Positions 4,079-55,125 of a stretch of DNA of 64,000 nucleotides are shown one piece after another. Each line of letters begins with the position of its first letter. Position 1 is the stretch's first letter. Below the pieces are notes generated by a model, which did not search any database, was not told where the DNA came from, and saw only the letters and a program-made list of their open reading frames with translations. Position numbers and translations under genes: made by a program. The DNA is from an uncultured Candidatus Rokubacteria bacterium (GTDB lineage: Bacteria > Methylomirabilota > Methylomirabilia > Rokubacteriales > CSP1-6): NCBI GenBank assembly GCA_963789955.1, contig CAWBMV010000006.1:384001-448000 (forward strand). Direction: 5' to 3'.

Positions 4079-4108
4079 TTGACGCGAGGCGTCACGGCGG
4101 CGTAACAT
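4079..4108 (+). promoter_or_regulatory. promoter of phaE with palindromic operator TGACGC-N3-GCGTCA
   Basis: TTGACG(4079-4084)-18 bp-TAACAT(4103-4108); palindrome 4080-4094. Confidence 0.55.
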
Positions 4109-4116
4109 CAGAAGTG

Positions 4117-14504: not shown

Positions 14505-15527
14505 CTAGGCCGTGATCCCCGGAATCTTCTTCAGCGGCCCGCCGAGCGTCTGCACGACCGCGGCGACGGTGGCGTCGGGAGTGTTCATCGGGAGCACGCA
14601 TCCCGGCGCGACGATCAGCCCGATGCCGTCGGTCTGAGCGACCGCGTCGCGCGTTTCGCTGACTGCCTGCTCCGCCGTTCCGTCCCGCAACGTCTTCCAC
14701 TGGTGGAGACCGCCGATGACGGCACCCGGCACCTTGGCGCGCGCGTCCCGCAGGGATGGCGGCGTCGCGCGGTCGTCCCAGTTCCAGGCGTGCCCCGGGA
14801 GACTGGCCAGCCGGTCGAACATCAGCTCGTTGCCGTGACAATGGATGATCGTCAGAGTCGACTTCGACTCGATCGACTCGAGGAACCGACGGTCGTAGGG
14901 CTCGCCGAACCGCGCGTAGTCCTCCTCGGAGTTGGCGGAGCGGCTGGCCGCCTGGATCGAGTAGAAGATGCCGGAGACGCCCTCCGTGAGGGCGAGCTCG
15001 GCGAATTTGATGAGCGTCTCGGTGATCGCCTCGAGCGCGCCCGTGACCGCGTCGGGATGATCCCGCAGGTCGCGCGGGAGCCGGTCGCCCGAGAGCTTCT
15101 TCGCGAGCGACAGTGGAGAGAAGAGGGTCGGCACGACCGGCGCGTCGCCGATCCGGCGATCGAAGCCCAGGCGGATGATCGTCTCGATCTCTTCGGCGTA
15201 CCCGGGCGCGGCGCCGGGATCGAGGACGCGGATCTTCTTCCAGTCCTCCGGCGCGCGGACCGCGCAGCCGGCGCACGGGCGGTGGCCGTCCTCGCGGACC
15301 GTGTCGCCCTCCACGCAGCCCCACGCCTCGACGGCGTAGCCGCCGCGCGGCGTGATCTTGAGGAAGTCCGAGCCGTAGTGCTCGTGGAATCGTAGGGTCG
15401 CCTGGGCCAGGCCCGCGGGCGAGTGATCGACGCTCGGGAAGTGGCGCCACACCGCGTAGGGGACCCGGTCGACGGGCTGGCGGTTGACCGCGGCGAGCAC
15501 GCGCTCGCGTCGACTCATCTGCTTCAT
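14505..15527 (-). CDS. uroporphyrinogen decarboxylase/MT2 methyltransferase superfamily protein
   Basis: RERV..VDRVP N-terminus, IIHCHG, IVAPGC; lacks the HemE RQAGR motif. Confidence 0.75.
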   Translation of the reverse strand: MKQMSRRERVLAAVNRQPVDRVPYAVWRHFPSVDHSPAGLAQATLRFHEHYGSDFLKITPRGGYAVEAWGCVEGDTVREDGHRPCAGCAVRAPEDWKKIRVLDPGAAPGYAEEIETIIRLGFDRRIGDAPVVPTLFSPLSLAKKLSGDRLPRDLRDHPDAVTGALEAITETLIKFAELALTEGVSGIFYSIQAASRSANSEEDYARFGEPYDRRFLESIESKSTLTIIHCHGNELMFDRLASLPGHAWNWDDRATPPSLRDARAKVPGAVIGGLHQWKTLRDGTAEQAVSETRDAVAQTDGIGLIVAPGCVLPMNTPDATVAAVVQTLGGPLKKIPGITA

Positions 15528-16394
15528 GCTCGTAGCACTCCGTCGCTCAGCACCGGCTCCCCGCGCCCGTCGACCGCGTCGAACGCGAGCAGGTCGCCCG
15601 CCCGTCCGCGGCCGCGCACCGTGAAGGTCGATGGCATGAACACCAAGCCGGTGAAGCGCACCGAGATCTCCTTGACGCGCGCCGGGTCGCCGCCGAGGTC
15701 TTGCTCGATCACCCGCGACACCGCCAGCGCGAGCGTCGCCGAGCCGTGAAGGATCGGCGCGGTGAGCCCGGCCGATCGGGCGACGGCGATGTCGGTATGG
15801 ATCGGATTCCAGATGCGCGCGCATTCCGAGTAGATGTGTGCCGCTCGGGCCCCGACCGGGACCTCCGCGGTCCAGCGCGTTTCGGTGGAAGCCGGCGGCG
15901 ACGGACGGGCGAGCGGCTCGACCGGCGCGCGGGCTTCGCGCTCGGTCGTGATCCCGCGATAGACCGAGCCGTAGTCGGTCGTCGTCACCGGCCGCCCGTT
16001 CCGGTCCACGGTGGACAAGCCGCGCGACGACGAGCGTGCCGGCGCGGCTCGGCCGCACCAGGATGATCTGCGCGCGCGTCAGCAGACGATCCGCGGTCGA
16101 GGGCAGCCGGTGGATGAGCACGTGATGGGTCGAGTGGACGCCCAGGAGCGCCCACGATTCCTTCACGGCCTTCGAGCGCAGCGCCAGCACGGCCGGCCAC
16201 TCGTAGCAGACCGAGAAGAGCGGGTGGGCCACCGGACCTTCCTCGGCCAAGGTGTCGTAGTAGCGTGGATCGTCCACCCCGAGCGCCGCGGAGTACGCCA
16301 TCATCCAGCGCGCGTCGAGCGAGGTACTCAGCGCGCCGACCTCGGTCCCGGCGACCGTGCCCGGGATCGCGCGAACGCCTTCCCGCCTCGTCAT
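15524..16394 (-). CDS. double hot-dog MaoC-family dehydratase (frameshift near 16020)
   Basis: N-terminal AHPLF and C-terminal WNPIHTD..PILHG. Confidence 0.75.
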
Positions 16395-18274
16395 CGTGCC
16401 CGCGGGAAGTTCATGCAGTCCACGAAGATCTCCTCGAAGTCCGGGTGAGCCGCGAGCGAGACGTGCTCGATCCGTCCCGCGACCGCCTCGGCGCGCGCGC
16501 GCTCCGTCTCGGACACGAGGCAGAGCTGCGCCCCGAGTGAGGCGGCGTTGCCCACGTAGCGGATTCGCTCGCGAGGCAGCGGAGGGATCAGCCCGATCCT
16601 GAGCGCGCTCTCGATCGACACGTAGTTGCCGAAGCCGCCGGCCAGCATCAGCTCGGCGACCGTTTCGGACGGGACGCCGGCGACGTGCTGCAGCATCGTG
16701 ACGCCCGAGGCGATCGCGCCCTTCGCCAGCTGCACCTGGCGCACGTCGTCCTGGGTGAGCACGATCTCTTGTCGCGCGCCGGCTTCGCCGGGCCGGAGCA
16801 CGATGACCTGACGCTCCTCGCCCCGCATCACGATCCGCTCGCCGAGCTTCGGCGGCAGCGAATCGCGGGCATCGACCTGGATCAAGCCGGTCCAGTCGAT
16901 GACACCGCCGTCGAGCAGGCCCGCCAGCAGATCGATGATCCCGGAGCCGCAGATGCCGAGCGCGTCCGCCTCGCCGATGGTGTGGACGTGGATGTCGTCA
17001 TCGACCGTGACCCGATCGATGGCGCCGAGGGCGCCGCGCATGCCGTGGCGGATCTGGGCGCCCTCGAGCGCCGGTCCCGCGGGCGCCGAGCAGGCCCAGA
17101 GCCGCTCGCGCGAGCCCAGCAACACCTCGCCGTTGGTGCCGATGTCGACGGCGATGCGGATCTCGGCGCTCTCGTAGATGCGCGTCGCGAGGGCGACGCC
17201 GACGGCATCGGCGCCGACGAAACCGGCGACGAGCGGCAGCAGACACACGCGCGCCTCCGGCGCCACCTTCAGGAAGAGCTCGCGCGCGGACAGGGTCACC
17301 GCGTGGCGCATCACCGGCGCATAGGGCGCGAGGCCCACGTGCGAGGGATCGATGCCGAGCAGGATGTGGTGCATGCACGTGTTGCCGACGACGACGACCT
17401 TGTAGATCCACTTGGCGAGCACGCCGGAGTCGCGGCAGATCTGCGCGATGTGCTGGTTCAGGAGGCCGACGATCCGCGTGTGGAGCTTCCGCAGATTGCC
17501 GGGATTGAACTGCGCGAAGGCGATGCGCGACATGAGGTCGCCGCCGAAGACCGCCTGCGGATTCAGGCTGGAGACCGACCCGAGCTGCTCGCCCGACTCG
17601 AGCTCGACCAGGGTGGTCACGACGCTCGTCGTGCCGATGTCGATCGCGAGGCCGAACTTCATCGCCGCGGTGTCGCCGCGCTCGACCGAAAGGATCCGCT
17701 GCCGTCCGCCACCCGCCGCGAACGTCGTCACCGTCACGCCCGCCGGATCGTCGCGGAGCGCGGACGGCAACCCCTGGAGCACGGCCGGGCCGACGTCGGC
17801 CGTGGTGAGGCCGACCGCTTCGAGAAGCTGCTCGAGGTCGGAGGTCTGGTGATGCTCTTCGCGCGGCAGGGTGACCTTGACCACCTGCTTGGCGATCCCC
17901 GAATCGAGCGTGACCCGGCCGAGCTCCCGCACGCCCGGCCCGGCGCCGAGGATCTGGAACGCGCGCTCGTCGAGCGGCGGCGCCGGCTGGACGGTGACGG
18001 CTTCGTGGAGCACGCACTGGCAGGCGAGGCGATAGCCCTCGCGGACCAGATCGTCGCCGAGCTGGACCTCGTCCATGATCGTCGGCGGCGGCGGCAGACC
18101 CACCAGGAACTTCACGCGACAGGACGTGCACCGTCCGCGCCCGCCGCAGGTGGCGGTGATATCGACGCCGCCCGCGTGCGCCGCCTTGAGAATCGTGGTG
18201 CCCGGCGCGACCGTCAGCGTCCGGCGCGACGCGGGATCGCGCGGATCGGCGACGAGCGTGAGCGGGACGGCCAT
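16391..18274 (-). CDS. [2Fe-2S]-ASKHA reductive activator of corrinoid proteins (RACo/DUF4445)
   Basis: CGGRGRCTSC..RLAC, IDIGTT, GFVGAD, DIGTNGE, AGPALEG, GICGSG, LAGGFG. Confidence 0.9.
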   Translation of the reverse strand: MAVPLTLVADPRDPASRRTLTVAPGTTILKAAHAGGVDITATCGGRGRCTSCRVKFLVGLPPPPTIMDEVQLGDDLVREGYRLACQCVLHEAVTVQPAPPLDERAFQILGAGPGVRELGRVTLDSGIAKQVVKVTLPREEHHQTSDLEQLLEAVGLTTADVGPAVLQGLPSALRDDPAGVTVTTFAAGGGRQRILSVERGDTAAMKFGLAIDIGTTSVVTTLVELESGEQLGSVSSLNPQAVFGGDLMSRIAFAQFNPGNLRKLHTRIVGLLNQHIAQICRDSGVLAKWIYKVVVVGNTCMHHILLGIDPSHVGLAPYAPVMRHAVTLSARELFLKVAPEARVCLLPLVAGFVGADAVGVALATRIYESAEIRIAVDIGTNGEVLLGSRERLWACSAPAGPALEGAQIRHGMRGALGAIDRVTVDDDIHVHTIGEADALGICGSGIIDLLAGLLDGGVIDWTGLIQVDARDSLPPKLGERIVMRGEERQVIVLRPGEAGARQEIVLTQDDVRQVQLAKGAIASGVTMLQHVAGVPSETVAELMLAGGFGNYVSIESALRIGLIPPLPRERIRYVGNAASLGAQLCLVSETERARAEAVAGRIEHVSLAAHPDFEEIFVDCMNFPRAR

Positions 18275-18305
18275 GGCTCCACATTCTAGTGGTATGCTCG
18301 CGCGC

Positions 18306-18482
18306 ATGGAAATAAGCGTGGAGTCGCTGAGGCGGACGGCCGCCCTCAGTGGGTTCGCCTGGACCGATGCCGAGCTCGAGGCCATCCGTCCCGCGGTCCA
18401 GCGCCTCCTCGAGTCCCTGGAGCAGATGGAGCAGCTGCCGCTCGGCGCCGTCGAGCCGACGACCCAATACCGGGTGCTCTGA
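18306..18482 (+). CDS. small GatC/AtzG-like amidase partner protein
   Basis: 58-aa helical protein ending ..VEPTTQY directly before an amidase. Confidence 0.6.
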   Translation: MEISVESLRRTAALSGFAWTDAELEAIRPAVQRLLESLEQMEQLPLGAVEPTTQYRVL

Positions 18483-21667: not shown

Positions 21668-21761
21668 GCCATCCCCCTCGTTCGAGGCTCGTCCGCCGTG
21701 CGCGCCCGCGTCGTGGGCCATTGTACTCGGGCCCCGGCCGCAGGGTTTCGCCGGCCGGAAA

Positions 21762-21818
21762 TGGCCTGACGGAATCAGGCCAATTGGCCCTTGACCAAAA
21801 CTTGGATCGGGCCAAAAT
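21762..21818 (+). promoter_or_regulatory. pdxR promoter with inverted and direct repeats (candidate PdxR sites)
   Basis: TGGCCTGA-N5-TCAGGCCA (21762-21782), GGCCAATTGGCC (21778-21789), TTGACC (21791), CCAAAA twice. Confidence 0.5.
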
Positions 21819-21837
21819 GGCTTGGCGGACGGGGACC

Positions 21838-23367
21838 ATGAACATCCCACTCGATCGCGACAAACCAACGGCGCTGCCGCGCCAGATCCAGGCGCACCTG
21901 GAGCGCCTCATCCACGAGCGGCTCCTGACGCCCGGCATGAAGCTGCCGGCCACCCGCGAGCTCGCCCGGCAGCTCGGCGTCAACCGCGGCACGGTGGCCC
22001 TCGCCTACGAGGAGCTGGTCGCGACCGGGTGGGCGCGCGCGCACGTGGGGCAGGGCACCTTCGTCGCCGAGCGCCCGACCAACGGCGCCGCGCCGATCGT
22101 CTCGGCCGCCGCGGCGCCGATCGCGCTCGATTGGTCCGGCCTCTTCTCGCGCAGCGCGCAGATCCTGGGGGCCGACGACGAGCGCTCGCGTGCGGTGACG
22201 CCCATCCCGTCGAGCGGCGCGGTCGTGTCCTTCGCGGGCGGGATGCCGGACAGCGGACTGTTCCCGACCGACGCCTTCCGCCGCGTGCTGAACCAGGTGA
22301 TTCGCGACGAAGGGCCCGCGCTCCTGCAGTACTATCCGGCCGGCGGCTATCCGCCGCTTCGTCGGTATCTCTCGACCTATCTGCTGCGGTTCGGCCTCGA
22401 GGCGCGCCCCGAGGAGATCCTGATCGTCAACGGCTCGCAGCAGGGGTTCGACCTGATCGCGCGCACCTTGATCGATCCCGGCGACTTCGTGGCGATCGAG
22501 CAGCCGACGTACCCGCGCGCGATGCAGGTCTTCCGATCGTTCGGCGCCCAGCTGCTGAGCGTGCCGTGGGACGGTTCCGGGCCGCGCGCCGACGTGTTCG
22601 AGCGGTTGCTGGAACGCCATACGCCGAAGCTCTTCTATTGCCAGCCGAGCGCTCACAATCCGACCGGGCTCGCGGTGGCGCCCGAGACCGCACGGCGGCT
22701 GCTCGACGCCGCGGCCCGCCACCAGGTGCCCATCGTCGAGGACGGGTTCGATGGCAGCCTGTTCTACGGCGAGGGGCCGACATTGCCGCTCAAGGCGGTC
22801 GACCGCGGCGGGGTCGTCATCTACATCGGGACGTTCTCGAAGATTCTGTTCCCGGGGCTGCGGCTCGGCTGGCTCGTCGGACCTCCGCCGATCCTCGAGC
22901 GGCTCCAGGCGGCGAAGCAGCTCGCCGATCTGCATACGAGTGCGCTCATCCAGGCGGCGGTCCATCGCTTCTGCGAGCGCAAGCTCCTCGATCGTCACGC
23001 CACGCGCGTCGCGACCGAGTATGCGCGGCGGCGCTCGCTGCTCTTGGCGGCGCTGCGACGGCGCATGCCGCCGGAAGTCACGTGGACGGAGCCCCGGGGA
23101 GGCTTCTCGCTGCTGCTCACGCTGCCGACCGGCATGGACGCAACGACGTTGCTGCCGCAGGCGATCGAGCGGGGCGTCGCCTTCACGCCCGGCGCGCCCT
23201 TCTTTGTGGACGGCGGCGGCCAGCGTACCCTGCGGCTCTCGTTTTCGTCGGTGGCGGCGGGCCGCATCGAGCGAGGGCATCCGGCGCCTCGCCGAAACGA
23301 TCAAGGCCGCGCGCAGCCGGCTTCGGGCCGGGAACGAGTGGAGCGCGGAGCGGTACCAGTCGTATAG
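21838..23367 (+). CDS. pdxR: MocR/GabR-family PLP-responsive regulator (probable indels near the 3' end)
   Basis: GntR wHTH plus aminotransferase domain [14 protein letters not shown]; precedes pdxST. Confidence 0.8.
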
Positions 23368-23387
23368 CGACAACAAGGAGAGATGAC

Positions 23388-24284
23388 ATGGCGGACCTGA
23401 ACGGATTGCGAATCGCTGACCGGAAGCACATCGGCCTCGCCGAGATGCTCAAGGGCGGGGTCATCATGGACGTCACCAACGCCGAGCAGGCGAAGATCGC
23501 CGAGGACGCCGGCGCGGCGTCGGTCATGGCGCTCGAGCGCGTGCCCTCCGACATCCGCCGGGACGGCGGGGTCGCGCGGATGTCGCCGGTGAAAAAGATC
23601 CAGGAGATCCAGAAGGCGGTGACGATCCCGGTGATGGCGAAGGCGCGGATCGGCCATTTCGTCGAGGCGCAGATTCTCGAAGCCCTCGCCGTCGACTACA
23701 TCGACGAGTCCGAGGTGCTGACGCCGGCCGACGAGCACTTCCACATCGACAAGTTCGCCTTCCGCATCCCGTTCGTGTGCGGCTGCCGCGATCTCGGCGA
23801 GGCGCTCCGGCGCATCGGTGAGGGCGCGGCGATGATCCGCACCAAGGGCGAGGCCGGCTCGGGCAACATCGTCGAGGCCGTTCGCCACATGCGCGCGGTC
23901 ATCTCCGGCATGCGGCGCCTCACCACGCTGGGCCCCGAAGAGCTGATGACCGAGGCCAAGAACCTCGGCGCGCCGTACGACCTCGTGCGCTGGGTGGCGA
24001 AGGCCGGCAAGCTCCCGGTGCCGAACTTCTCCGCGGGCGGCATCGCGACCCCCGCCGACGCCGCGCTCATGATGCAGCTCGGGGCGGAGGCCGTCTTCGT
24101 CGGCTCCGGGATCTTCAAGTCGAGCGACCCGGCCAAGCGCGCCAAGGCCATCGTGCAGGCCACGACGCACTTCAAGGACCCGGACGTGCTCGCGCGCGTG
24201 AGCGAGGATCTCGGCGACGCCATGGTCGGCATCGAGATCTCGAAGATGGCCGAGAAGGATCTCATGCAGACACGGGGCTGGTAG
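23388..24284 (+). CDS. pdxS: pyridoxal 5'-phosphate synthase lyase subunit
   Basis: [38 protein letters not shown]. Confidence 0.97.
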
Positions 24285-24306
24285 GCCCGCCTCGAATACA
24301 CGGGCC

Positions 24307-24894
24307 ATGCGGATCGGGGTGCTCGCCCTCCAGGGTGACTTCGGGCTTCACGCCCGGGCGCTCGAGAAGTGCGGGGTGGAGGCGGTCGAGGTGCGCAAGC
24401 CGCTCGAGCTCGACGAGGTCGATGGCCTCGTCATGCCGGGCGGCGAGTCCACGACCCTGCTCAAGCTCATGGACGCGTGGGATTTCGTGCCGGCCCTCGA
24501 GAAATTCCACAGCGAGGGCAAGCCGATCTTCGGAACGTGCGCGGGACTCATCATCCTGGCGCGCGAGGTCGAGAGCCCGAAGCAGTTCTCGCTCGGGCTC
24601 ATCGACGTCACCGTCGAGCGCAATGCCTACGGCCGCCAGCGCGAGTCGTTCGAGGCGCACGGGACGGCAACGCTCGACGGCCAGACGATTCCGCTCGAGA
24701 TGTTTTTCATTCGAGCACCCCGGATCCGGCGGGTGGGACCCGGGGTCGAGGTGCTGGCCGAGCATGGCGGCGAGCCGGTCATGGCCCGTCAGGATCGGGT
24801 GCTGGTCGCGACGTTTCACCCGGAGCTCACCGACAAGACGACGGTGCACCAGTACTTCTGTGACCTGGTGCGCCGGTCCCGGACCGCGACATGA
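24307..24894 (+). CDS. pdxT: PLP synthase glutaminase subunit
   Basis: GVLALQG, PGGESTT, GTCAG, FHPEL. Confidence 0.97.
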   Translation: MRIGVLALQGDFGLHARALEKCGVEAVEVRKPLELDEVDGLVMPGGESTTLLKLMDAWDFVPALEKFHSEGKPIFGTCAGLIILAREVESPKQFSLGLIDVTVERNAYGRQRESFEAHGTATLDGQTIPLEMFFIRAPRIRRVGPGVEVLAEHGGEPVMARQDRVLVATFHPELTDKTTVHQYFCDLVRRSRTAT

Positions 24895-25514
24895 TCTTTC
24901 ACGATTACTACTCGGACATCCCGCGCGACGACGTCGACCGGCTCGTGCAGTCGCAGGAGCTGGCGCGGCTCGTCACCGTCGGTGACGACGCGATGCCGCA
25001 CGTGGGTCTGTATCCGTTCGTCTACGACGGGAAAACCCTCGATTTGCATCTTGTGAGATCCGACGAGCAGATCAAGGACTTGAAGGCTCGGCCACGCTGC
25101 GTGCTCGAAGTCGACGAGGTCCTGGCGGTGATCCCGTCGTACTGGGTGCACCCGGAGTACGCGGGTGCGGCGACGGCGTACCACCGAACCGTGATCTTCG
25201 AGTGCGAGGCCAGGGTCGAGGAAGACCCCGAGGCCGTCGCGGCCCAGCAGCAGCGGCTGCTCGCTCGATACCAGCCCGAAGGCGGCTTCAGGCCGCTCGA
25301 CCCGAACAATCCCCTCTATCGCGGGGCCATGGCGCAGCTCGCCGCCGTGACCTTGCAGATCAACCGCTGGCGCGCGAAGTTCAAACTGGGGCAAAATCGC
25401 CCCGTCGAGGCGCGGCGGCAGGTCATCGCCGAGCTGCGCAAGCGAGGGCGCCCGAATGACGGGCGCGCCGCGGACGCGCTCCAGTGGACGATCGACGCTC
25501 GCGCCGAGCGGTAG
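24891..25514 (+). CDS. FMN-binding split-barrel protein, PaiB-like
   Basis: KFKLGQNR C-terminal motif; adjacent to pdx genes. Confidence 0.7.
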   Translation: MIFHDYYSDIPRDDVDRLVQSQELARLVTVGDDAMPHVGLYPFVYDGKTLDLHLVRSDEQIKDLKARPRCVLEVDEVLAVIPSYWVHPEYAGAATAYHRTVIFECEARVEEDPEAVAAQQQRLLARYQPEGGFRPLDPNNPLYRGAMAQLAAVTLQINRWRAKFKLGQNRPVEARRQVIAELRKRGRPNDGRAADALQWTIDARAER

Positions 25515-25544
25515 TCGGCGCGCTCAGGCCCGGAGGATGACGCG

Positions 25545-26336
25545 ATGAAAATCACGGCGAACGGCATCTCGATGAACTACACCCTGGATGGTCCGGCCAA
25601 CGCGCCGGTCGTCACGTTGAGCCACTCGCTCGCGACGACTCTGGCGATGTGGGAGCCCCAGCTGAAGGCGCTCACCGCGCGCTGGCGAGTGCTCGCCTAC
25701 GACACGCGCGGCCATGGCGGGACCGACGCGCCCAAGGGCGGATACTCGCTCGAGCAGCTCGCCGACGACGCGCAGGCGCTCCTGCGCGCGCTCGGAATCC
25801 AGCGCACGCACTGGGTCGGCCTCTCCATGGGCGGCATGATCGGCCAGACCCTGGCCCTCAAGGCGCCCGAGCTCTTCACGAGCCTCTCGCTCTGCGACAC
25901 GTCGAGCCGGGTTCCCCCGGAGGCGAAGCCCTTGTGGGACGAGCGCATCCACACCGCCGAGACGAAGGGGATGGAGCCGCTCGTCGAGCCGACCCTGTCC
26001 CGGTGGTTCACCGCGCCCTTCAAGGAGCGCGGCGGCGCGGTGGTCGAGACCGTTCGCGGGATGATCCGCTCGACGCCGCCGGCGGGCTATATCGGCTGCT
26101 GCCAGGCGATCTCGGGTCTCAACCTCACCGATCGCATCGGCGCCATCAGGGTGCCGACCTTGATCATCGTCGGCGAGGAGGACCAGGGCACGCCGGTCGC
26201 CGCGTCGAAGGTCATGAACGAGAAGATCCACGGCTCGCAGCTGGTCATCCTGAAATCCGCCGCCCATCTGGCCAACATGGAGCAGCCGGAGGCGTTTACC
26301 AACGCCCTGACCGGCTTTCTGGGCAAGTCCGGCTAG
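25545..26336 (+). CDS. alpha/beta hydrolase, 3-oxoadipate enol-lactonase-like
   Basis: YDTRGHG, GLSMGG, AAHLANMEQP. Confidence 0.8.
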   Translation: MKITANGISMNYTLDGPANAPVVTLSHSLATTLAMWEPQLKALTARWRVLAYDTRGHGGTDAPKGGYSLEQLADDAQALLRALGIQRTHWVGLSMGGMIGQTLALKAPELFTSLSLCDTSSRVPPEAKPLWDERIHTAETKGMEPLVEPTLSRWFTAPFKERGGAVVETVRGMIRSTPPAGYIGCCQAISGLNLTDRIGAIRVPTLIIVGEEDQGTPVAASKVMNEKIHGSQLVILKSAAHLANMEQPEAFTNALTGFLGKSG

Positions 26337-26393: not shown

Positions 26394-26439
26394 TCTTGAC
26401 AGGGTCAAGACCGGGTCGTAGTCTCTCTGGTCAGACCAG
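26394..26439 (+). promoter_or_regulatory. sigma70 promoter with FadR-type GntR operator
   Basis: TTGACA(26396-26401)-17 bp-TAGTCT(26419-26424); CTGGTC-A-GACCAG (26427-26439); second inverted repeat TCTTGAC-N3-GTCAAGA (26394-26410). Confidence 0.75.
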
Positions 26440-26490
26440 CCGACCACGATGACAGCCACACGACGAAGCAGGCGAGCCTAGGAGGAACGC

Positions 26491-27699
26491 ATGTCAGCCC
26501 TGATCTGTGAAGTCGTCTATCGCGGTATCTACCAGAAAAACCTCGCCGCCCGGATCACCCGTGGCATCGTGCTCTCGGCCCGCAAGTCGGGCCGCTGGGG
26601 CATCGCGTTCGGCCGCTACGGCGACAGCCCGCAGCGGAACGGCATCCCCGCGAAGGACTTCGCGATCGTTGCCGACACCAAGGAAGAGCTCGAGCAGAAC
26701 ATGGCGCGCTACGAGCCCAAGCACGTCGACGTGACGGTCGCCGTCGACGACACGCTCTCGAAGGGCGTGGAATCGTGGGCGTGGTACGGGCTCCAGCCCA
26801 TCAATCGCCTGACGCAGCCGAACGGCACCCTGCTGATGACGTCGCTCCAGAGCTACGAGAGCCTCCTGAAGGACATCCACAAGAAGGACGCCCCCTACAA
26901 GCTGGCGCTCATCCGCGCCAAGGCGTCGTTCTCCGGGCTCTGGGTCTACCGCGAGGACCACACCGAGGTGCGGGTCCTCGGCGCGCTCGCGAAGATCGCC
27001 CCGTCGTTCCTGACCTTGCAGGGCGTCAGCGACGCGATCCGCGAGATCGAGTGGGGCTCCGACCTGAAGGTCAACTCGGCGAAGAAGGCGTACGAGCGCC
27101 TGGAGTTCCGCGAGGTCAAGATGACCGAGGGCAACTCCGAGATCCCGTACTCGTTCCAGATGCCGAAGTGGTGGGAGATGCGCGAGGGCGTGACGATCCC
27201 GGCGATCCCCGTGGGCAAGCCCAAGGAGGACGGCAAGGGGTACGTGCCCGAGCGGAATCCGTACTTCAAGAAGTTCACCACGCGGACGATGCGCCCGGTC
27301 GTCAACTTCGACACGTGCGTGAAGTGCACGCTCTGCTGGATCCAGTGCCCCGACTCCTGCTTCGACGTCATGCCCGACGGCACCTACGACGCCAACATGG
27401 AAGCGTGCTGCGGCTGCGGCGTGTGCGAAGCGGTGTGCCCCGTCGAGAACTGCATCACGATGGTCAACGAGTCGGTGTTCGAGGACAACGCGAGCCAGTG
27501 GGAGATGTGGCGCAAGGACAAGCCCGCGTATCAGACCTGGATGGCCGAGAAGATCGGCGACAAGAACGCGACCGTCCGCTCCCACGGCTTCCGGTTCCGC
27601 GGCCAGTACGAGAAGGAGCTCGAGAAGAACTTCGAGGACGGCGGAACCGAGATCATCGCCGGCATCCCCGGCGAGAACGCGCAGCACAAGGAGGGTTAG
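26491..27699 (+). CDS. 2-oxoacid:ferredoxin oxidoreductase gamma-delta fusion, oxalate oxidoreductase delta-like
   Basis: Gamma-like N-terminus without the GxGGxG loop; two CxxCxxCxxxCP motifs. Confidence 0.8.
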   Translation: MSALICEVVYRGIYQKNLAARITRGIVLSARKSGRWGIAFGRYGDSPQRNGIPAKDFAIVADTKEELEQNMARYEPKHVDVTVAVDDTLSKGVESWAWYGLQPINRLTQPNGTLLMTSLQSYESLLKDIHKKDAPYKLALIRAKASFSGLWVYREDHTEVRVLGALAKIAPSFLTLQGVSDAIREIEWGSDLKVNSAKKAYERLEFREVKMTEGNSEIPYSFQMPKWWEMREGVTIPAIPVGKPKEDGKGYVPERNPYFKKFTTRTMRPVVNFDTCVKCTLCWIQCPDSCFDVMPDGTYDANMEACCGCGVCEAVCPVENCITMVNESVFEDNASQWEMWRKDKPAYQTWMAEKIGDKNATVRSHGFRFRGQYEKELEKNFEDGGTEIIAGIPGENAQHKEG

Positions 27700-27703
27700 C
27701 ACC

Positions 27704-28936
27704 ATGGCGGTTGTCACCCCGGCGGCCCCGGCCGCGACCGAAGAGGACAAGGAGCTCCTGATCTCCGGGAGCGAGGCCGTCGCCGAGGCGCTCACCCTCG
27801 CCGACCTGGACGTCGTCACCGCGTATCCGATCCGGCCGTACGACACCGTCATGCAGGCGATCGCCAAGAAGATCTCGGGCGGCCAGCTGGTGGCCGAGTA
27901 CATCGTCGCCGAGGGCGAGCACAGCCAGTTCGAGATCGTCAAGCACGCCTCGACCGTCGGCGCGCGCGTCTTCTGCGGCTCGTCCGGCGTCGGCTGGATG
28001 TACGCGATGGAGTGCCTCGTGGTCACGCCGCCGCTGCGCGTGCCGATGGTGGCCCTCGTCGGCAACCGCGCCCTCGACGATCCGGGCGCGTTCGGCGTCG
28101 AGCACAACGACGCGCTGGTGGTCCGCGACGTCGGCTGGCTGCTCTGCTGGATCGACACCTCGCAAGAGGCGCTCGACACCACCTTGATCGCCTACCGCGT
28201 CGCCGAGGACCGCCGCGTGTTCCTGCCGCTGGCCATCTCGGCGGACGGCGCGTTCCTCACGCACTCCCAGGCGCTGACGATGGTGCCGCCGAAGTCGAAG
28301 GTCGACCGGTTCCTGCCGCGCTACGACCGCGGCGATCTGCTGCTGCACCCGGACAACCCGATCACGGTCGCGCCCCAGGCGAACGAGGACTGGGTCATCG
28401 AGATCCGCCGCCAGAACAACGAGGCGATGGCCCGCGCCGTCACCGTGATCGAAGAGGCGTACGCCGACTTCCGGCGTGTCTTCGGCCGCGGTCCGGAGAA
28501 TCCGTGGTTCGAGGAATACATGACCGATGACGCCGACATCATCCTGGTCGGCATGGGGACGATCTCGCTGCCGATCAAGGTCGCGATCCGCGAGCTCCGC
28601 GCCAAGGGCAAGAAGGTCGGCCTGGTGCGGCTGCGCTGGTTCCGGCCGTTCCCGACCGAGAAGCTCGTCGCCGCGCTGTCCAAGGCGAAAGCGCTCGGCA
28701 TCATCGACCGCGACTACTCGTTCGGCTCGCCGTTCGGCTCGGGGGTGGTCGCCAACGAGATCCGTGCGGCACTGTACAATGCCGAGAAGAGACCGCCGCT
28801 CCTGTCGTTCATCTGCGGGCTGGGTGGCCGCGAGGTCACGCTCGAGGACGTCTACAAGGCGACGGACCAGTGCTACGCGGCCGCGGCGTCCGGGAAGTCC
28901 GACTCCAAGACCCACTGGCTGGGCGTGCGGGAATAG
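27704..28936 (+). CDS. oxalate oxidoreductase-like alpha subunit
   Basis: YPIRP, EGEHS, GSSGVG, FRPFP, GLGGR. Confidence 0.85.
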   Translation: MAVVTPAAPAATEEDKELLISGSEAVAEALTLADLDVVTAYPIRPYDTVMQAIAKKISGGQLVAEYIVAEGEHSQFEIVKHASTVGARVFCGSSGVGWMYAMECLVVTPPLRVPMVALVGNRALDDPGAFGVEHNDALVVRDVGWLLCWIDTSQEALDTTLIAYRVAEDRRVFLPLAISADGAFLTHSQALTMVPPKSKVDRFLPRYDRGDLLLHPDNPITVAPQANEDWVIEIRRQNNEAMARAVTVIEEAYADFRRVFGRGPENPWFEEYMTDDADIILVGMGTISLPIKVAIRELRAKGKKVGLVRLRWFRPFPTEKLVAALSKAKALGIIDRDYSFGSPFGSGVVANEIRAALYNAEKRPPLLSFICGLGGREVTLEDVYKATDQCYAAAASGKSDSKTHWLGVRE

Positions 28937-28947
28937 GAGAAGCCACC

Positions 28948-29979
28948 ATGGCCGAGACGACGACGTTCCGTAATGCGACGCAGATCCTCGAGCCCTTCCG
29001 CGGGGTCAAGCGGGTGACGATCGAGGAGTACTTCACCTCCGGGCACCGGACGTGCCAGGGGTGCGAGTCGGCGCTGGTCATGAAGCTCATGGTCAAGGCG
29101 TCCGGGCCGCGCACCATCGTGCTCGGCTCGACCGGCTGCATGTACGTCGCCAACACGACCTATTACACGACGCCCTGGGTGGTGCCGTGGATGCACACGC
29201 AGCTGGGATCCTCCGGGTCGGCGGCGCTCGGCACGGCGGCCGGGCTGAAGGCCCTCATGAAGAAGGGCAAGATGAAATCGGAGCCGATCAACGTCATCGC
29301 CTTCTGCGGCGACGGCGGCGGCGCCGACATGGGCCTCGGCGCGATTTCGGCGACCCTGACCCACAAGGAGTACAACTCGCTGATCCTGCTCTACGACAAC
29401 GAGTCGTACGCCAACACCGACATCCAGCTCTCCGGGATGACGCCGTACGGCGCCAACACCACGTTCAGCCCGCCCGGCAAGGTGATTCGCAACATCCACA
29501 CCCGGTGGAAGAAGAACATGGCGGGCCTGATGGCGGCGGGCCATCCGGAGTGCCGCTACGTGGCGACCGTCTGCGCCTCGTACGCCGTGGAGATGATGAA
29601 CAAGGTACGGCGCGCGCTGACGATCGGCGGCCCGACGTTCATCCACTCGCTCGACCCGTGCCCGAAGGGCTGGGACTACGATCCGATGCTGTCGCACGAG
29701 CTGGGCGAGCTGGCCATCGAGACCGGCATCTTCCCGCTGTACGAGGTCGAAGACGGCCAGGTGAAGTACTACGGCAAGACGAAGGCGATCGTCGAGGGCC
29801 GGGCGCGCAAGCCGGTGCGGGAATACCTCCTCAAGCAGGGCCGGTTCGCGCATTTCACCGAAGAGGATCTCGACTACTTCCAGGCCAAGGTCGACGAGCA
29901 GTGGGAGAAATGGGAGATTCCGGCCGTCGTGCCGTTCCGTCGCCTCGACGCGACGCGCGCGGCGCTGTCGGCGAAGTAA
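28948..29979 (+). CDS. oxalate oxidoreductase-like beta subunit (TPP-binding)
   Basis: CQGC, TGC, GDG..YDNESYANT, PCPKGW. Confidence 0.85.
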   Translation: MAETTTFRNATQILEPFRGVKRVTIEEYFTSGHRTCQGCESALVMKLMVKASGPRTIVLGSTGCMYVANTTYYTTPWVVPWMHTQLGSSGSAALGTAAGLKALMKKGKMKSEPINVIAFCGDGGGADMGLGAISATLTHKEYNSLILLYDNESYANTDIQLSGMTPYGANTTFSPPGKVIRNIHTRWKKNMAGLMAAGHPECRYVATVCASYAVEMMNKVRRALTIGGPTFIHSLDPCPKGWDYDPMLSHELGELAIETGIFPLYEVEDGQVKYYGKTKAIVEGRARKPVREYLLKQGRFAHFTEEDLDYFQAKVDEQWEKWEIPAVVPFRRLDATRAALSAK

Positions 29980-30023
29980 TCGCCGAATCGCCCTTGGCTC
30001 CGCCTCGCCAGCCTTAGCAGGGT

Positions 30024-30065
30024 AGGGCCGGGTTCCCGTGAAACGGGACCCGGCCCTTTCGTGTT
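30024..30065 (+). terminator. putative intrinsic terminator
   Basis: AGGGCCGGGTTCCCGT-GAA-ACGGGACCCGGCCCT followed by TTCGTGTT. Confidence 0.65.
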
Positions 30066-30125
30066 CTATAGGCGTCTACCTACGACATCGGCCTCGGGGC
30101 CTGACCTCGAGCAAAGGAGCGAGCG

Positions 30126-31120
30126 ATGAAGCTCGAATCTAGTCGTCGCACTCGTCCTCACGCTGCTGATCGCGGTTCCCGTCTCCGCCGTGGCCTGGGA
30201 GCCGACCAAGCCGATCGAGTTCGTCGTGCCGGCCGGGACCGGTGGCGGCGCCGACCAGATGGCACGCCTGATCGCCGGCATCGCCGAGAAGCACAAGCTC
30301 TCGCCGCGGCCTCTGATCGTCATCAACAAGGCGGGCGGCGCCGGCGCCGAGGGGTTCCTCGACGTCAAGAGCAAGAAGGGCGACGCCCACACGATCATCA
30401 TCACCCTCTCGAACCTCTTCACGACGCCGCTTCACAACAATCTCCCGTTCAACTGGCGCGACTACACGCCGCTCGCCCGCATGGCGCTCGACGAGTTCGT
30501 CCTGTGGGTCAACGCCGACACGCCGTACAAGACCGCCAAGGAGTACCTGGCCGCGGTCAAGGACAAGCAGTGCAAGGAGCGCCAGAGCGGGCAGTGCCTG
30601 ATGGGTGGGACGGGCTCCGCGCAAGAGGATCAGATCCTCACCATCCAGCTGGAGCAGGGCCTTCCGGGAACCAAGTTCAGCTACGTGCCGTTCAAGGGCG
30701 GCGGCGAGGTCTGCGTGAATCTCGTCGGCAAGCACCTCGATTCGACCGTGAACAACCCGATCGAGTGCGTGAGCCACTGGAAGGCCGGCAGAGTGCGCCC
30801 GCTCGCCGTCTTCGACACGGCGCGCATCGCGGTCGGGGAGTGGAAGGACATCCCGACGATCAAGGAGGCGCTCGGCGTCGACGTGCAGCTACCTGATGCT
30901 CCGCGGCATCTTCGGCACGCCGGGCATGCCGAAGGAGGCGGTCGACTGGTACATCGCGTTCTTGAAGAAGGTGACGGAGACGCCGGAGTGGAAGAAGTAC
31001 CTGGATGACGGCGCCCTCAAGCCGGCCTTCGCCACCGGCGCGGAGTACGTGAAGTGGGTCGAGGAAAACGAGCAGCTTCACAAGGAGCTGATGAGCAAGG
31101 GCGGGTTGCTGAAGAAGTAA
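30126..31120 (+). CDS. tctC: tripartite tricarboxylate transporter substrate-binding protein (2 frameshifts)
   Basis: Signal peptide, PAGTGGGAD, NKAGGAGA, VPFKGGG, LRGIFG. Confidence 0.85.
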
Positions 31121-31121
31121 G

Positions 31122-31583
31122 ATGCGGGCCGCCGACCTCGCGACCGCGTCCATCCTGGTCCTGCTCGGTGGGGTCGTGGTCCTCGACTCCATGCGGATCG
31201 GGATCGGCTGGAGCACCGACGGGCCCCGCAGCGGATTCTTCCCGTTCTGGCTCGGGGTCATCCTGATCGTCGCCGCGGTGACGATCGGCATCCAGGCGTG
31301 GCGCCGGTCGACGGCGAAGTCGTTCGTGTCGCGCGAGCAGCTCGGTCCGGTGCTCAAGGTGCTGTGGCCGGCCGTCACGATGGTCATCCTGATCCAGCCG
31401 CTCGGCCTCTACGTCGCCGCCGCGCTCTATCTGAGCTTCTACATGCGCTGGGTCGGGCGACACGGCTGGCTCGCCGTGGCTCTCTGCGCGATCGGTGTCC
31501 CGCTGCTCACGTTCGTCGTCTTCGAGCTGTGGTTCCTGGTGCCGATGCCCAAGGGCCCGCTCGAGGCCTGGCTCGGATACTGA
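31122..31583 (+). CDS. tctB: TTT small membrane subunit
   Basis: GPRSGFFPF, 4 TM helices, VPMPKG. Confidence 0.85.
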   Translation: MRAADLATASILVLLGGVVVLDSMRIGIGWSTDGPRSGFFPFWLGVILIVAAVTIGIQAWRRSTAKSFVSREQLGPVLKVLWPAVTMVILIQPLGLYVAAALYLSFYMRWVGRHGWLAVALCAIGVPLLTFVVFELWFLVPMPKGPLEAWLGY

Positions 31584-31587
31584 CCCG

Positions 31588-33104
31588 ATGGGCGTCGAGA
31601 ACCTCTTCCACGGATTCCAGATCGCGATCACGCCGTTCAACCTGCTCGTGGCGGTGCTCGGCATCACGCTCGGGACCATCATCGGCGTCCTGCCCGGGCT
31701 CGGCGGCGCCAACGGCGTCGCGATCCTGCTGCCCCTGACGTTCACGATGCCGCCGACCTCGGCGATCATCCTGTTGACCTCGCTCTACTGGGGCGCGCTC
31801 TTCGGCGGCGCGATCACCTCGGTGCTCTTCAACATCCCGGGGGAGCCGTGGTCGGTCGCCACGACCTTCGACGGCTATCCGCTGGCGCGGCAGGGGCAGG
31901 GGGGCCAGGCGCTGACCGCCGCCTTCACCTCCTCGTTCATCGGCGCGCTCTTCTCGATCGTCCTGATCACGTTCTTCGCGCCGCTCTTGGCCGAGATCGC
32001 CCTGCGCTTCGGACCGCCCGAGTTCTTCGCGATCCAGCTCCTGACCTTCTCGAGCTTCATCGGCCTCGGGCGGCGGCGATCCGCTGAAGTCCCTGGTGTC
32101 GATCGTGCTCGGATTCATCCTGGCCGCCGTCGGGCTCGACATCGTCACCGGCCAGCTCCGGATGACGTTTGGCTTCGTGGACCTCATGAAGGGCTTTGAC
32201 TTCATCGTGGCGGTCATCGGGCTCTTCGGGATCGGCGAGATCCTCCTCAGCGTCGAGGAGGGGCTGAGCTTCAAGGGCGCCGTCACCGGCATGAACCTGC
32301 GCGTGGTGCTCGACACCTGGAAGATCTTGCCGCGCTATGCGCGCACCTTCGTACGCGAGTGCCTTCATCGGCTTCTGGATGGGGTTCAAGCCCGGCGGCG
32401 CCACCCCCGCCTCGTTCATGAGCTACGCCTTCGCCAAGCGCTTCTCGAAGCACCCCGAGCGGTTCGGCAAGGGCGAGCTCGAGGGCGTGGTGGCCCCGGA
32501 GACGGCCGCCCACGCCGCCGGCGTCGCGGCGATCCTGCCGATGATCACCCTCGGCATCCCCGGCTCCCCGACGGCGGCGGTCATGCTCGGCGGGCTCATC
32601 ATCTGGGGTCTGCAGCCGGGACCGCTTCTCTTCACGGAGAAGCCCGACTTCGTCTGGGGGCTCATCGCCAGCATGTACACCGGCAACATCATCGGCGTCC
32701 TGATGGTGCTGGCGTTCGTGCCGTTCTTCGCGGCCATCTTGAGGATCCCGTTCGCGATCCTGACGCCGCTGATCGTCGTCGTGTGCGCGATCGGCTCGTA
32801 CGCCGTCCACAACAGCATGATCGACATCTGGTACATGCTGATCTTCGGGGTGATCGGCTACGTGTTCAAGAAGCTCGACTACCCGCTCGCGCCGCTCGTG
32901 CTGGCCCTGGTCCTGGGCGACCTGGCCGAGAACGCGCTCCGCCAGAGCCTGATCATGTCCCAGGGCTCGCTCGCGATCTTCGTGTCGCGCCCGATCGCCG
33001 GGGTGATCACGGCCGTGGCGATCTTCTTCTTCGTGCTCCCGGTGCTGACGCCGTGGTGGCGGCGCATGCGTGGGACCACGGTACCGCCGGCGCGGCCGAG
33101 CTGA
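31588..33104 (+). CDS. tctA: TTT large permease (frameshifts near 32070 and 32355)
   Basis: GVLPGLG, NIPG, TFDGYPL, APETA, TLGIPGS. Confidence 0.9.
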
Positions 33105-33802
33105 TGGCGCTGCTCAGCGACCCCGAATTCTGGATCCGGTTACTGGGTATCGGTGTGTTGAACCTCCTCCTTTCGGGCGACAACGCCCTGGTCATCGCGC
33201 TGGCGGTGCGCGCGCTGCCGAAGCGAAAGCGGGTGCAGGGGCAGGTCTGGGGCGCGGTCGGCGCGGTCGTCCTCCGTCTGATCTTCGTGGGGATCGTCAG
33301 CGTGCTGTTGAGAATCCCGCTGCTCCAGCTGGTCGGCGGGCTCCTGCTCGTGTGGATCGCGGTCAGGCTCGTCCGGCCGGAGACCGGCGGCGACAACCAG
33401 GTCCGGCGGGGCGCGTCCTTGTGGGAGGCGATCTGGATCATCATCGTGGCCGACGTGACGATGAGCCTCGACAACGTGCTCGCGATCGCGGCGACCGCCC
33501 ACGGTGATTTCCTCCTCGTGATGTTCGGCATCGGCCTCTCGCTGCCGATCGTCATCTGGGGCGCCGGGCTCCTGGCGATCCTCATGAACCGCTTCACGTG
33601 GATCGTCTGGCTGGGCGGCGGCCTGCTCGGCTACGTCGCGGGCGAGATGGTGATCGGCGACCCGCTCGTGCAGCGCTGGCTCGCAAACGGCGCGACGGTG
33701 CTCCGCTATGTCGTGCCCATCACCGTCGGCGTGGCGATCACGGGGCTCGGCTGGTGGCTCGGGCGCGGGCATCGCCACGCGCACGTGGCGGAGAATCTCT
33801 GA
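33104..33802 (+). CDS. TerC/YjbE family membrane protein
   Basis: LSGDNALVIA, ADVTMSLDNVLAIA. Confidence 0.9.
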   Translation: MALLSDPEFWIRLLGIGVLNLLLSGDNALVIALAVRALPKRKRVQGQVWGAVGAVVLRLIFVGIVSVLLRIPLLQLVGGLLLVWIAVRLVRPETGGDNQVRRGASLWEAIWIIIVADVTMSLDNVLAIAATAHGDFLLVMFGIGLSLPIVIWGAGLLAILMNRFTWIVWLGGGLLGYVAGEMVIGDPLVQRWLANGATVLRYVVPITVGVAITGLGWWLGRGHRHAHVAENL

Positions 33803-33809
33803 GGCGCCG

Positions 33810-34575
33810 ATGAGCGCGCCCGAGCGTCGGCGAACGGGGGATCAGGCCGTCGAGCTTGGACCGATCAAGTCGACGCGGATCTACGAGGAGATCGTCCGAC
33901 AGGTCAAGCAGCTGATCTCCGAAGGACGCTTCAAGAGCGGCGATCGGCTGCCCCCGGAGCGCGAGCTCGCCGAGAAGTTCGTCGTCAGCCGCACCTCGGT
34001 GCGCGAGGCCCTGCGCGCCCTGGAAAGCCTCGGCCTCATCGACATCCGACCGGGCGAGGGGACGTTCGTCCGCGAGGTGTCGATCGACGCGCTGATCGGT
34101 CCACTGGCCCTCGTGATGACCTCGCAGCGCGAAGCGATCGGCGAGCTCTTCGAGGCCCGTCGGGTGCTGGAGCCGGCCATTGCCGCGCTCGCGGCGAGCC
34201 GCGCGACGCCGGACGAGGTCCAGGAGATGGAGCGCATCCTCGAGGACCAGGCCCGGGAGATCGCCGAAGGGCGCACCGGGCTCGCGCAGGACGCGGCCTT
34301 TCACGCCGCGATCGGCACGGCCGCTCACAACCGGGCGATCACGCGGCTCGTGCACGCGATCATGGATCTCCTCACGCAAAGCCGCGAGGAGTCGATCAAC
34401 ACCCCGGGCCGACCTACGTCGCTCGCATCAGGACCACCGGCGCATCGTCCAGGCGATCGCGCGTCGCAATAGCGCCGCCGCGCGGCAGGCGATGCTCGAC
34501 CACCTGGTCGCCGTGGAGGCGCTCGTGCTCGGGCCGGCATCTCAGCGACCCCGAGGCGGGCGCTCGGGCGCTTGA
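33810..34575 (+). CDS. FadR-subfamily GntR regulator (frameshift near 34417)
   Basis: LPPERELAEKFVVSRTSVREAL plus FCD domain (D..FH, H..I, HL). Confidence 0.9.
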
Positions 34576-55075: not shown

Positions 55076-55125
55076 AAAACGGAGCCGGTGAGCTCGCGCC
55101 GCCCGCGATCCGGAGAACCCGGTAG

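What the first reader, a model, noticed from the sequence alone, without database searches (positions are those of the whole stretch)
26394..34575. Oxalate-oxidoreductase-like, apparently CoA-independent enzyme with TTT transporter, TerC and FadR regulator
Seen: a delta(gamma-delta)/alpha/beta trio; alpha has YPIRP instead of the PFOR YPITP; the gamma domain has RGIYQK instead of the Gly-rich CoA-binding loop; beta has YDNESYANT. Established: the YPIRP arginine and CoA independence characterise Moorella thermoacetica oxalate oxidoreductase. From my recollection of that sequence, the loop carrying its active-site Asp (DPPGDFG) reads DDPGAFG here, so the substrate or mechanism may differ (oxalate, oxamate or glyoxylate are candidates). 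Inference: tctCBA imports the substrate and the downstream FadR senses it, forming a complete C2-acid catabolic module in an organism that also encodes respiratory ACIII rather than being an obvious acetogen.
Basis: partly seen in the sequence, partly recalled or inferred. Interest (0 to 1): 0.78.

Follow-up and report, generated by a model that had tools for sequence, protein, structure and literature searches.

The report
Soil-bacterial variant of oxalate oxidoreductase
These genes of an uncultured soil bacterium (Rokubacteria) encode a sister form of the enzyme oxalate oxidoreductase with a rebuilt active-site loop, plus a transporter and a repressor, and they likely let the cell take up oxalate and burn it to CO2, a route that databases label as pyruvate metabolism.

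Summary
Observation confirmed. The intact delta/alpha/beta trio has all the quoted motifs. For each subunit the best solved relative and best NCBIfam family is Moorella oxalate oxidoreductase (OOR), but all three score below the OOR cut-offs. In an alpha tree the enzyme lies in a clade sister to canonical OOR, apart from PFOR/VOR. It keeps Arg31, Arg109, Phe117, Gln211 and Asn143. Asp116 is Ala in 238 of 238 clade hits and Asp in 119 of 119 OOR-type hits, and the domain-III loops are rebuilt. Genomic context points to oxalate. Outside Rokubacteria an OxlT-family antiporter follows the trio in 36 of 47 metagenome loci, often with an oxalate-CoA-ligase-like gene, panE and a glyoxylate aminotransferase upstream. 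The window's TctC is 64-68% identical to TctCs beside canonical OORs. A FadR-type operator precedes delta in 65 of 65 relatives. About 140 of 183 Rokubacteriales genomes carry the enzyme. Substrate, CoA independence and the transporter and repressor ligands are inferred, not shown. The tct/fadR frameshifts are likely assembly errors. This scan found the same clade on four other genomes. Verdict: new variant of a known kind.

The parts
26396..26424 (+). Likely sigma-70 promoter (TTGACA, 17 nt, TAGTCT)
   Evidence: Read from the sequence. A TTGAC-like hexamer lies 22-34 nt before the operator in 60 of 65 relatives. The strict promoter scan did not list it.
26428..26446 (+). Likely FadR-family operator: palindrome TGGTCAGACCA plus a second GACC half-site
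   Evidence: Pattern in 65 of 65 upstream regions, 0 in five control sets of upstream regions. One match in the window, 0 in 100 shuffles.
26491..27699 (+). Delta subunit: domain III (gamma) fused to a 2x[4Fe-4S] ferredoxin domain; RGIYQK in place of RGGQG; clade insert VESWAWYG; SFSGLWVY where OOR has its longer loop
27704..28936 (+). Alpha subunit: YPIRP (Arg44 = OOR Arg31), Arg122 (= Arg109), DDPGAFG (Ala129 = Asp116; Asp126 = Pro113), Gln225 (= Gln211)
   Evidence: 43% identical to a Moorella sp. OOR alpha
28948..29979 (+). Beta subunit: TPP-binding GDG motif, four Cys that would hold the proximal [4Fe-4S] cluster, YDNESYANT (= OOR Asn143)
30024..30057 (+). Terminator-like hairpin between beta and tctC
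   Evidence: 13 pairs, 10 G-C, T-rich tail
30126..31120 (+). tctC, periplasmic binding protein of a tripartite tricarboxylate transporter (two likely assembly frameshifts)
   Evidence: PF03401; only TctC match in the genome; 64-68% identical to TctCs next to canonical OORs
31122..31583 (+). tctB
   Evidence: PF07331
31588..33104 (+). tctA (two likely assembly frameshifts)
   Evidence: PF01970 in two pieces
33104..33802 (+). TerC-family, YjbE-type membrane protein; link to the module weak
   Evidence: TIGR03717 205.5 bits against a cut-off of 134.8; present in 43 of 50 loci
33810..34575 (+). FadR-subfamily (GntR+FCD) regulator, likely the repressor of the delta promoter (one likely assembly frameshift)
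   Evidence: present in 48 of 49 loci

Best explanation
The trio is a thiamine-diphosphate, three-[4Fe-4S] enzyme from a widespread sister clade of Moorella oxalate oxidoreductase, and it likely oxidises oxalate to two CO2 without coenzyme A, passing two low-potential electrons to a ferredoxin-type carrier. Shown: subunit make-up, cofactor motifs, sister position to OOR, and retention of both active-site arginines. Inferred: both arginines bind the two carboxylates of oxalate, as in OOR. Since Asp116 is Ala, the 'bait and switch' step must work differently; the invariant new Asp126 three residues upstream is the likeliest stand-in. In Rokubacteria TctCBA would import oxalate, taking the place of the OxlT antiporter used by relatives in other phyla. 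The FadR protein would repress the delta promoter through the conserved operator until an inducer (oxalate or a derivative) binds.
For: Best PDB hit of all three subunits is OOR 5C4I: alpha 327 bits vs 210 for the best PFOR, beta 302 vs 208, delta 62 vs 43. Best NCBIfam families are the OOR models. Alpha tree of 80 rows: clade plus OOR 99 SH-aLRT, clade 98, OOR 100, apart from 41 PFOR/VOR-type rows (quick tree). The delta model's top 8 fold hits are OOR chains. PMC5020499 (passages) states that YPIRP/Arg31 binds oxalate and that OOR needs no CoA. OxlT-family gene within two genes after beta in 36 of 47 metagenome loci with enough flank; 32 of 32 such proteins scanned pass the TIGR04259 cut-off. 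Upstream in 35 loci with enough flank: ligase 18, panE 18, both 17, aminotransferase 16. The one ligase tested has oxalate-CoA ligases as best solved relatives (394-425 bits vs 255 next), and the one aminotransferase tested has alanine-glyoxylate aminotransferase. PanE is oxalyl-CoA reductase in M. extorquens (PMC9485241 passages). Window TctC is 64-68% identical to TctCs behind above-cut-off OORs. OxlT passes cut-off in only 3 of 61 Rokubacteriales genomes. The same operator precedes fadR in two canonical OOR loci, and its palindromic core precedes oxlT in L087. The genome has five full-length E1-type dehydrogenase matches, so the trio need not be its pyruvate oxidiser.
Against: All three subunits fall below the NCBIfam OOR cut-offs (369.8/500, 355.2/590, 75.8/230). 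Asp116, which PMC5020499 calls important for OOR's mechanism, is Ala in 238 of 238 clade hits. The longer OOR domain-III loop (FSGSEGG-type) is replaced by SFSGLWVY, and the clade keeps YGDSPERNG, closer to the YGPERMG of a PorC-type gamma than OOR's YVDLPDR is, so blocking of the CoA site is not demonstrated. In 6 of 47 loci a canonical OOR follows directly, so the two are not redundant and might differ in substrate. The oxalate-specific neighbours come from relatives about 65-72% identical, mostly close kin of each other, and not from this window. The window's genome lacks an above-cut-off OxlT and a close oxalate-CoA ligase (best 33% identity), and holds oxc- and frc-like genes below cut-off that could be another oxalate route. 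TIGR04259 proteins also score near the L-lactate transporter model.
Confidence: 0.62

Rival explanations
1. A CoA-independent OOR-like enzyme for another small acid (glyoxylate, oxamate or similar), in an oxalate/glyoxylate regulon; loss of Asp116 reflects the changed substrate.
For: Asp116 to Ala and rebuilt loops are fixed in the clade. Tandem with canonical OOR in 6 of 47 loci. Neighbouring panE, aminotransferase and malate synthase make or use glyoxylate. A formamidase-family gene occurs in 7 loci and a GGT-family gene in 3.
Against: Both arginines are kept, which fits a dicarboxylate. OxlT and the TctC type are shared with canonical OOR loci. The GGT-family protein tested has no diagnostic closeness to any one solved enzyme. 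In the tandem loci the canonical copy's delta is fused to a GltD-like NAD(P)H flavoprotein, so a different electron acceptor would explain keeping both.
Confidence: 0.18
2. A CoA-dependent 2-oxoacid:ferredoxin oxidoreductase (PFOR-like, as databases label it, or glyoxylate to formyl-CoA) with an unusual CoA site.
For: Database names say pyruvate ferredoxin oxidoreductase. PorA_Arch scores 332 bits vs 370 for OOR. YGDSPERNG resembles PorC. ppdK follows in 41 of 46 loci. The genome's only other POR_N hits are a KorA-like gene and a fragmented homodimeric PFOR.
Against: Does not group with YPITP enzymes. YPIRP in 235 of 238 clade hits. RGGQG is replaced in all 27 clade deltas aligned. ppdK has its own promoter-like sites, lacks the operator and was not among the recurring neighbour families of non-Rokubacteria loci.
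Confidence: 0.12
3. The enzyme acts on oxalate but releases formate plus CO2 (non-oxidative or mixed decarboxylation), which would feed the oxalate/formate antiport.
For: Tight link to an oxalate/formate antiporter family and loss of the mechanistic Asp116.
Against: All Fe-S ligand motifs are kept. Canonical OOR loci also carry OxlT (L111, L212, L213). Rokubacteria use a TTT importer, not an antiporter.
Confidence: 0.08

Closest known systems
Oxalate oxidoreductase of Moorella thermoacetica (PDB 5C4I/5EXD/5EXE; NCBIfam NF045790-NF045792)
   Same: Three chains with gamma and ferredoxin domains fused; YPIRP Arg31, Arg109, Phe117, Gln211, Asn143; no RGGQG loop; sister group in the alpha tree; 43% alpha identity to a Moorella sp. 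OOR
   Different: Asp116 to Ala, Pro113 to Asp, Thr34-side YPIRPYT to YPIRPYD; domain-III loop replaced and a 9-residue aromatic insert added; C-terminal extension of delta; below all three family cut-offs; host has heme-copper oxidases and no acetyl-CoA synthase found
Four-subunit pyruvate/2-ketoisovalerate:ferredoxin oxidoreductases (PorABCD/VorABCD; PDB 9BT4)
   Same: [quoted passage not shown]
   Different: They have YPITP and RGGQG and need CoA; separate side of the tree
Oxc/Frc/OxlT oxalate catabolism and oxalyl-CoA assimilation (oxalate-CoA ligase, PanE-type oxalyl-CoA reductase)
   Same: OxlT, ligase, PanE and glyoxylate aminotransferase occur beside the clade in other phyla
   Different: No oxc or frc among the recurring neighbour families; oxidation would be direct, on free oxalate
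Tripartite tricarboxylate transporters (TctCBA) and FadR-subfamily repressors (PdhR/LldR/GlcC)
   Same: Family membership by Pfam; the TGGT-N3-ACCA operator shape matches what I recall for PdhR/LldR (recalled)
   Different: No solved TctC is close (best 114 bits, an uncharacterised protein); no named FadR family reaches its cut-off; ligands unknown

Membership tests
Oxalate oxidoreductase (OOR) | YPIRP motif (Arg31) | tested here: met
   alpha 41-45; motif described in PMC5020499
Oxalate oxidoreductase (OOR) | Arg109; Phe117, Gln211 and beta Asn143 (roles of the last three recalled) | tested here: met
   aligned to 5C4I
Oxalate oxidoreductase (OOR) | Asp116 in the DPPGDFG loop | tested here: not met
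   Ala here and in 238 of 238 clade hits; Asp in 119 of 119 OOR-type hits
Oxalate oxidoreductase (OOR) | Domain-III plug loop with its Glu (Glu154 and its role recalled) | tested here: not met
   replaced by a shorter SFSGLWVY segment; a separate VESWAWYG insert exists
Oxalate oxidoreductase (OOR) | NCBIfam cut-offs NF045790/91/92 | tested here: not met
   75.8/230, 369.8/500, 355.2/590
Oxalate oxidoreductase (OOR) | Three chains, TPP motif, ligands for three [4Fe-4S] clusters | tested here: met
Oxalate oxidoreductase (OOR) | Oxalate to 2 CO2 without CoA | not testable with these tools
   needs an assay; context supports oxalate
PFOR/VOR (CoA-dependent) | YPITP motif | tested here: not met
   YPIRP
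PFOR/VOR (CoA-dependent) | Gly-rich RGGQG loop in domain III (its CoA-binding role recalled) | tested here: not met
   RGIYQK vs RGGQG; no PF01558 hit at 1e-5
PFOR/VOR (CoA-dependent) | Groups with PorA/VorA in a tree | tested here: not met
   (quick tree; the careful search did not finish)
Tripartite tricarboxylate transporter | tctC, tctB, tctA genes | tested here: met
   PF03401, PF07331, PF01970 above cut-off
FadR subfamily of GntR | GntR HTH plus FCD domain | tested here: met

The most novel reading that the evidence does not exclude
An unrecognised second class of oxalate:ferredoxin oxidoreductase, working without OOR's Asp116 switch and usable by oxygen-respiring cells, is near-core to Rokubacteriales and scattered over many soil phyla. 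With the first oxalate-binding TTT transporter, it makes these abundant soil bacteria oxalate oxidisers that gain low-potential electrons from oxalate and are invisible to oxc/frc gene surveys.
Probability: 0.45. Interest if true: 0.78.

Novelty: new variant of a known kind. Interest (0 to 1): 0.62.

Why it matters
OOR is described as the one OFOR that needs no CoA (PMC12337175, passage), and the solved structures found here are all from one acetogen. A large sister clade that keeps the oxalate-binding arginines but lacks Asp116 is a natural test of the bait-and-switch mechanism. If it burns oxalate, most sampled Rokubacteriales have an oxalate-oxidising route that is annotated as pyruvate oxidoreductase and that oxc/frc-based surveys would miss. 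The conserved operator, the single TctC and the FadR give cheap ligand-binding tests of the substrate.

Tried and rejected
PFOR reading: rejected on motifs and tree. Real pseudogenisation of tct/fadR: rejected as likely assembly error, since near-identical contigs lack four of the five extra bases and ilvB, gltB and other genes of this assembly are also split. A genome-wide regulon to reveal the substrate: the operator pattern gave 6 hits, only one behind a promoter-like site; the others look like chance, one lying in what looks like rRNA sequence. The full operator pattern was found before fadR in only 11 of 77 non-Rokubacteria loci and before 0 of 54 oxlT genes, so co-regulation of oxlT rests on single loci. 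TctC ligand from solved relatives: none close. GGT-family neighbour as oxamate hydrolase: not diagnostic. ESM Atlas gave only generic PFOR-alpha clusters. Plasmid search gave 4 distant PFORs. Rfam found nothing in the window. The careful tree did not finish in two runs; supports are SH-aLRT only and the tree is unrooted. Local tblastn/phmmer missed the distant KorA-like gene that the family search found, so local 'absent' results are weak. RNA-library contigs from four studies cover the trio in near-identical strains, but they cannot show transcription level or strand and may include DNA. No residue-level structure of the active site was available, so Asp126 as stand-in is untested. No complex prediction was run. 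The primary OOR papers (Gibson 2015, Gibson 2016 PNAS and review, Pierce 2010 and 2017, Chen 2018, Cossu 2024) were not held; their text or supplements may already show this clade in trees or alignments.
Full report
Observation. The window is part of contig C6 of a 6.8 Mb genome, 87% complete. Its closest relatives are records titled Rokubacteria or Methylomirabilota. tctC, tctB, tctA, a YjbE-type TerC and a GntR+FCD regulator follow. tctC, tctA and fadR carry five single-base insertions relative to intact relatives. Near-identical public contigs lack four of them, and other genes of this assembly are split as well, so these are likely assembly errors.

Closest known enzyme. For each subunit the best solved relative is Moorella OOR 5C4I, and the best NCBIfam model is the OOR one, but below cut-off: 369.8/500, 355.2/590 and 75.8/230. 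An AlphaFold model of delta (mean pLDDT 76.5; its alignment included 6 canonical OOR gamma rows) had OOR chains as its top 8 fold hits, ahead of PorC. Part of that lead comes from OOR sharing the gamma-ferredoxin fusion. An alpha tree of 80 chosen rows (23 clade, 16 OOR-type including a Moorella sp. protein, 41 other OFORs, two of those scanned above PorA-type cut-offs) puts the window in a clade (SH-aLRT 98) sister to canonical OOR (100), the pair separated from the rest with 99. This is the quick tree; the careful search did not finish.

Active site. By alignment with 5C4I the enzyme keeps Arg31, Arg109, Phe117, Gln211 and beta Asn143. PMC5020499 (passages seen) says Arg31 of the unique YPIRP motif binds oxalate, that Arg31 and Asp116 drive the bait-and-switch mechanism, and that CoA is not required. 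The roles of Phe117, Gln211, Asn143 and Glu154 are recalled from papers I could not open. Asp116 is Ala in all 238 clade proteins listed by two searches and Asp in all 119 OOR-type proteins listed by a third; these lists are top hits, not random samples. Pro113 is Asp throughout the clade, including its deepest member P0135, which makes Asp126 the best candidate for a replacement acid (inference). In domain III the clade has RG(I/V)(F/Y)Q where a PorC-type gamma has RGGQG and OOR-type gammas have RGVVQD or RGIIMD. OOR's longer loop is replaced by SFSGLWVY and a 9-residue aromatic insert is added. The clade's YGDSPERNG is closer to PorC than OOR's equivalent is, so CoA independence is likely but not proven.

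Distribution. A search of 251 Methylomirabilota genomes gave 192 matches at 1e-30, a count that includes PFORs and canonical OORs. Counting by hand the rows with E of 1e-110 or better, about 140 of 183 genomes of the window's order carry this enzyme. Source names of homologues include NC10, Binatia, Nitrospinota, Deltaproteobacteria, Dehalococcoidia, Tectomicrobia, Firmicutes and Armatimonadota, named as pyruvate ferredoxin oxidoreductase wherever a name is given. Of 351 genomes sampled around a record titled Vicinamibacterales, 7 had the clade (one probably a mis-binned contig) and 2 a canonical OOR.

Module in Rokubacteria. Among the 80 closest loci, counting those with enough flank: tctC 63 of 65, tctA 56 of 57, terC 43 of 50, fadR 48 of 49, ppdK 41 of 46. 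A sequence GGT-N3-ACCA-N3-(G/T)ACC lies in 65 of 65 regions upstream of delta and in none of five control sets; in 60 of 65 a TTGAC-like hexamer precedes it. The pattern was read off these same regions, so the controls, not the 65 of 65 alone, carry the weight. It has the shape I recall for FadR-family operators. In other orders the homologous FadR (about 48-57% identical) heads the operon behind the same site. This ties the downstream FadR to the trio by inference. A hairpin after beta may limit read-through into tct.

Substrate evidence. After earlier notes of this scan pointed to oxalate-type transporters, I tested it. Of 80 metagenome loci found with an Armatimonadota-labelled homologue, 8 had no beta called and 25 ended too soon. 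Of the other 47, 36 have an OxlT-family gene within two genes, 6 a canonical OOR, 2 a TctC and 3 something else. I scanned 32 of the 45 full-length members of that transporter family (56 in all), and all 32 pass TIGR04259; some also pass the L-lactate transporter model at lower scores. Of 35 loci with enough upstream flank, 17 have both an acyl-CoA ligase and a panE gene and 16 a class-V aminotransferase. The one ligase tested is closest to oxalate-CoA ligases, and the one aminotransferase tested is closest to alanine-glyoxylate aminotransferase. PanE is oxalyl-CoA reductase in M. extorquens (PMC9485241, passages); orthology with that protein was not tested. Together these would form an oxalate assimilation branch beside an oxalate-burning enzyme. 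These loci are close kin and not independent. In Rokubacteriales OxlT is rare (3 of 61 above cut-off), and the window's TctC, the only one found in its genome, is 64-68% identical to TctCs behind above-cut-off OORs. That fits TctCBA as the oxalate importer.

Against. The clade fails the OOR cut-offs and lacks Asp116. It sits in tandem with canonical OOR in some loci, which calls for a functional difference; there the canonical delta is fused to a GltD-like flavoprotein, so electron acceptor rather than substrate may differ. The window's genome has oxc-like (510 and 369 bits vs 739) and frc-like (up to 469 vs 504) genes, and no close oxalate-CoA ligase or OxlT.

Host. ACIII/Qrc-like genes are in the window. 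Heme-copper oxidase genes are present, acetyl-CoA synthase was not found, and several E1-type dehydrogenases exist.

Literature. Searches for oxalate oxidoreductase, OFOR with Asp116, Rokubacteria with ferredoxin oxidoreductase or oxalate, OOR with plug loop, Moth_1592, oxalotroph terms and TTT with oxalate listed nothing whose title or abstract start describes this clade. I read passages of PMC5020499, PMC12337175, PMC9485241, PMC12873857 and PMC10227082, and passages, abstract and one section of PMC13768988; the rest were seen as listings only. The primary OOR papers were not held and may show such sequences.

Verdict. It works like OOR, but it is not a member by three tested features (Asp116, domain-III loop, family cut-offs): a new variant of a known kind. 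Oxalate oxidation without CoA is my best reading at 0.62. This scan reported the same clade on four other genomes. What I add from my own calls is the conserved operator, the TctC shared with canonical OOR loci, and the tandem arrangement with an NAD(P)-linked OOR.

Noticed in passing
L110, L111, L112, L113, L212, L213, L208, L209: A CDC48-like double AAA ATPase gene lies beside the gamma/delta gene of canonical OORs and of two clade paralogues; candidate chaperone or activase for OOR-type enzymes.
   Followed up: partly
L212:9481-11310; also L161, L163, L169, L196, L200, L203, L213: Canonical OOR whose delta part is fused to a GltD-like NAD(P)H flavoprotein, often directly behind a DDPGAFG-type trio.
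   Followed up: partly
P0135; L211:8543-9760: Deep-branching clade members: P0135 has a third loop type, DDPGNFA; L211 has YPIRPYTE.
   Followed up: no
L180, L187, L199, L200, G402, G494: Two paralogous clade trios in one locus or genome, the second with SFSGMWV in delta.
   Followed up: no
window 14508-18385 (-): RACo-type corrinoid activator (PF14574) next to a URO-D-family protein, suggesting a corrinoid methyltransferase module in a genome without a found acetyl-CoA synthase.
   Followed up: no
window 54480-61615 (+): Multiheme cytochrome, molybdopterin/Fe-S subunit, NrfD and ActD-domain genes: ACIII or Qrc-like complex, followed by moeA.
   Followed up: partly
window 21721-26336 (+): MocR/PdxR-like regulator, pdxS- and pdxT-like genes, an FMN-binding protein and a pcaD-like hydrolase precede delta in most Rokubacteria loci but lack the operator where tested; probably plain synteny.
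   Followed up: partly
window 2947-4638 (+): Alpha/beta-hydrolase-fold protein and PhaE-domain protein, a likely class III PHA synthase pair.
   Followed up: no
G000:C1:419154-422160 and C21:67922-69487, C22:359498-360673: oxc-like gene adjacent to an frc-like gene, plus further oxc- and frc-like genes, all below the curated cut-offs.
   Followed up: no
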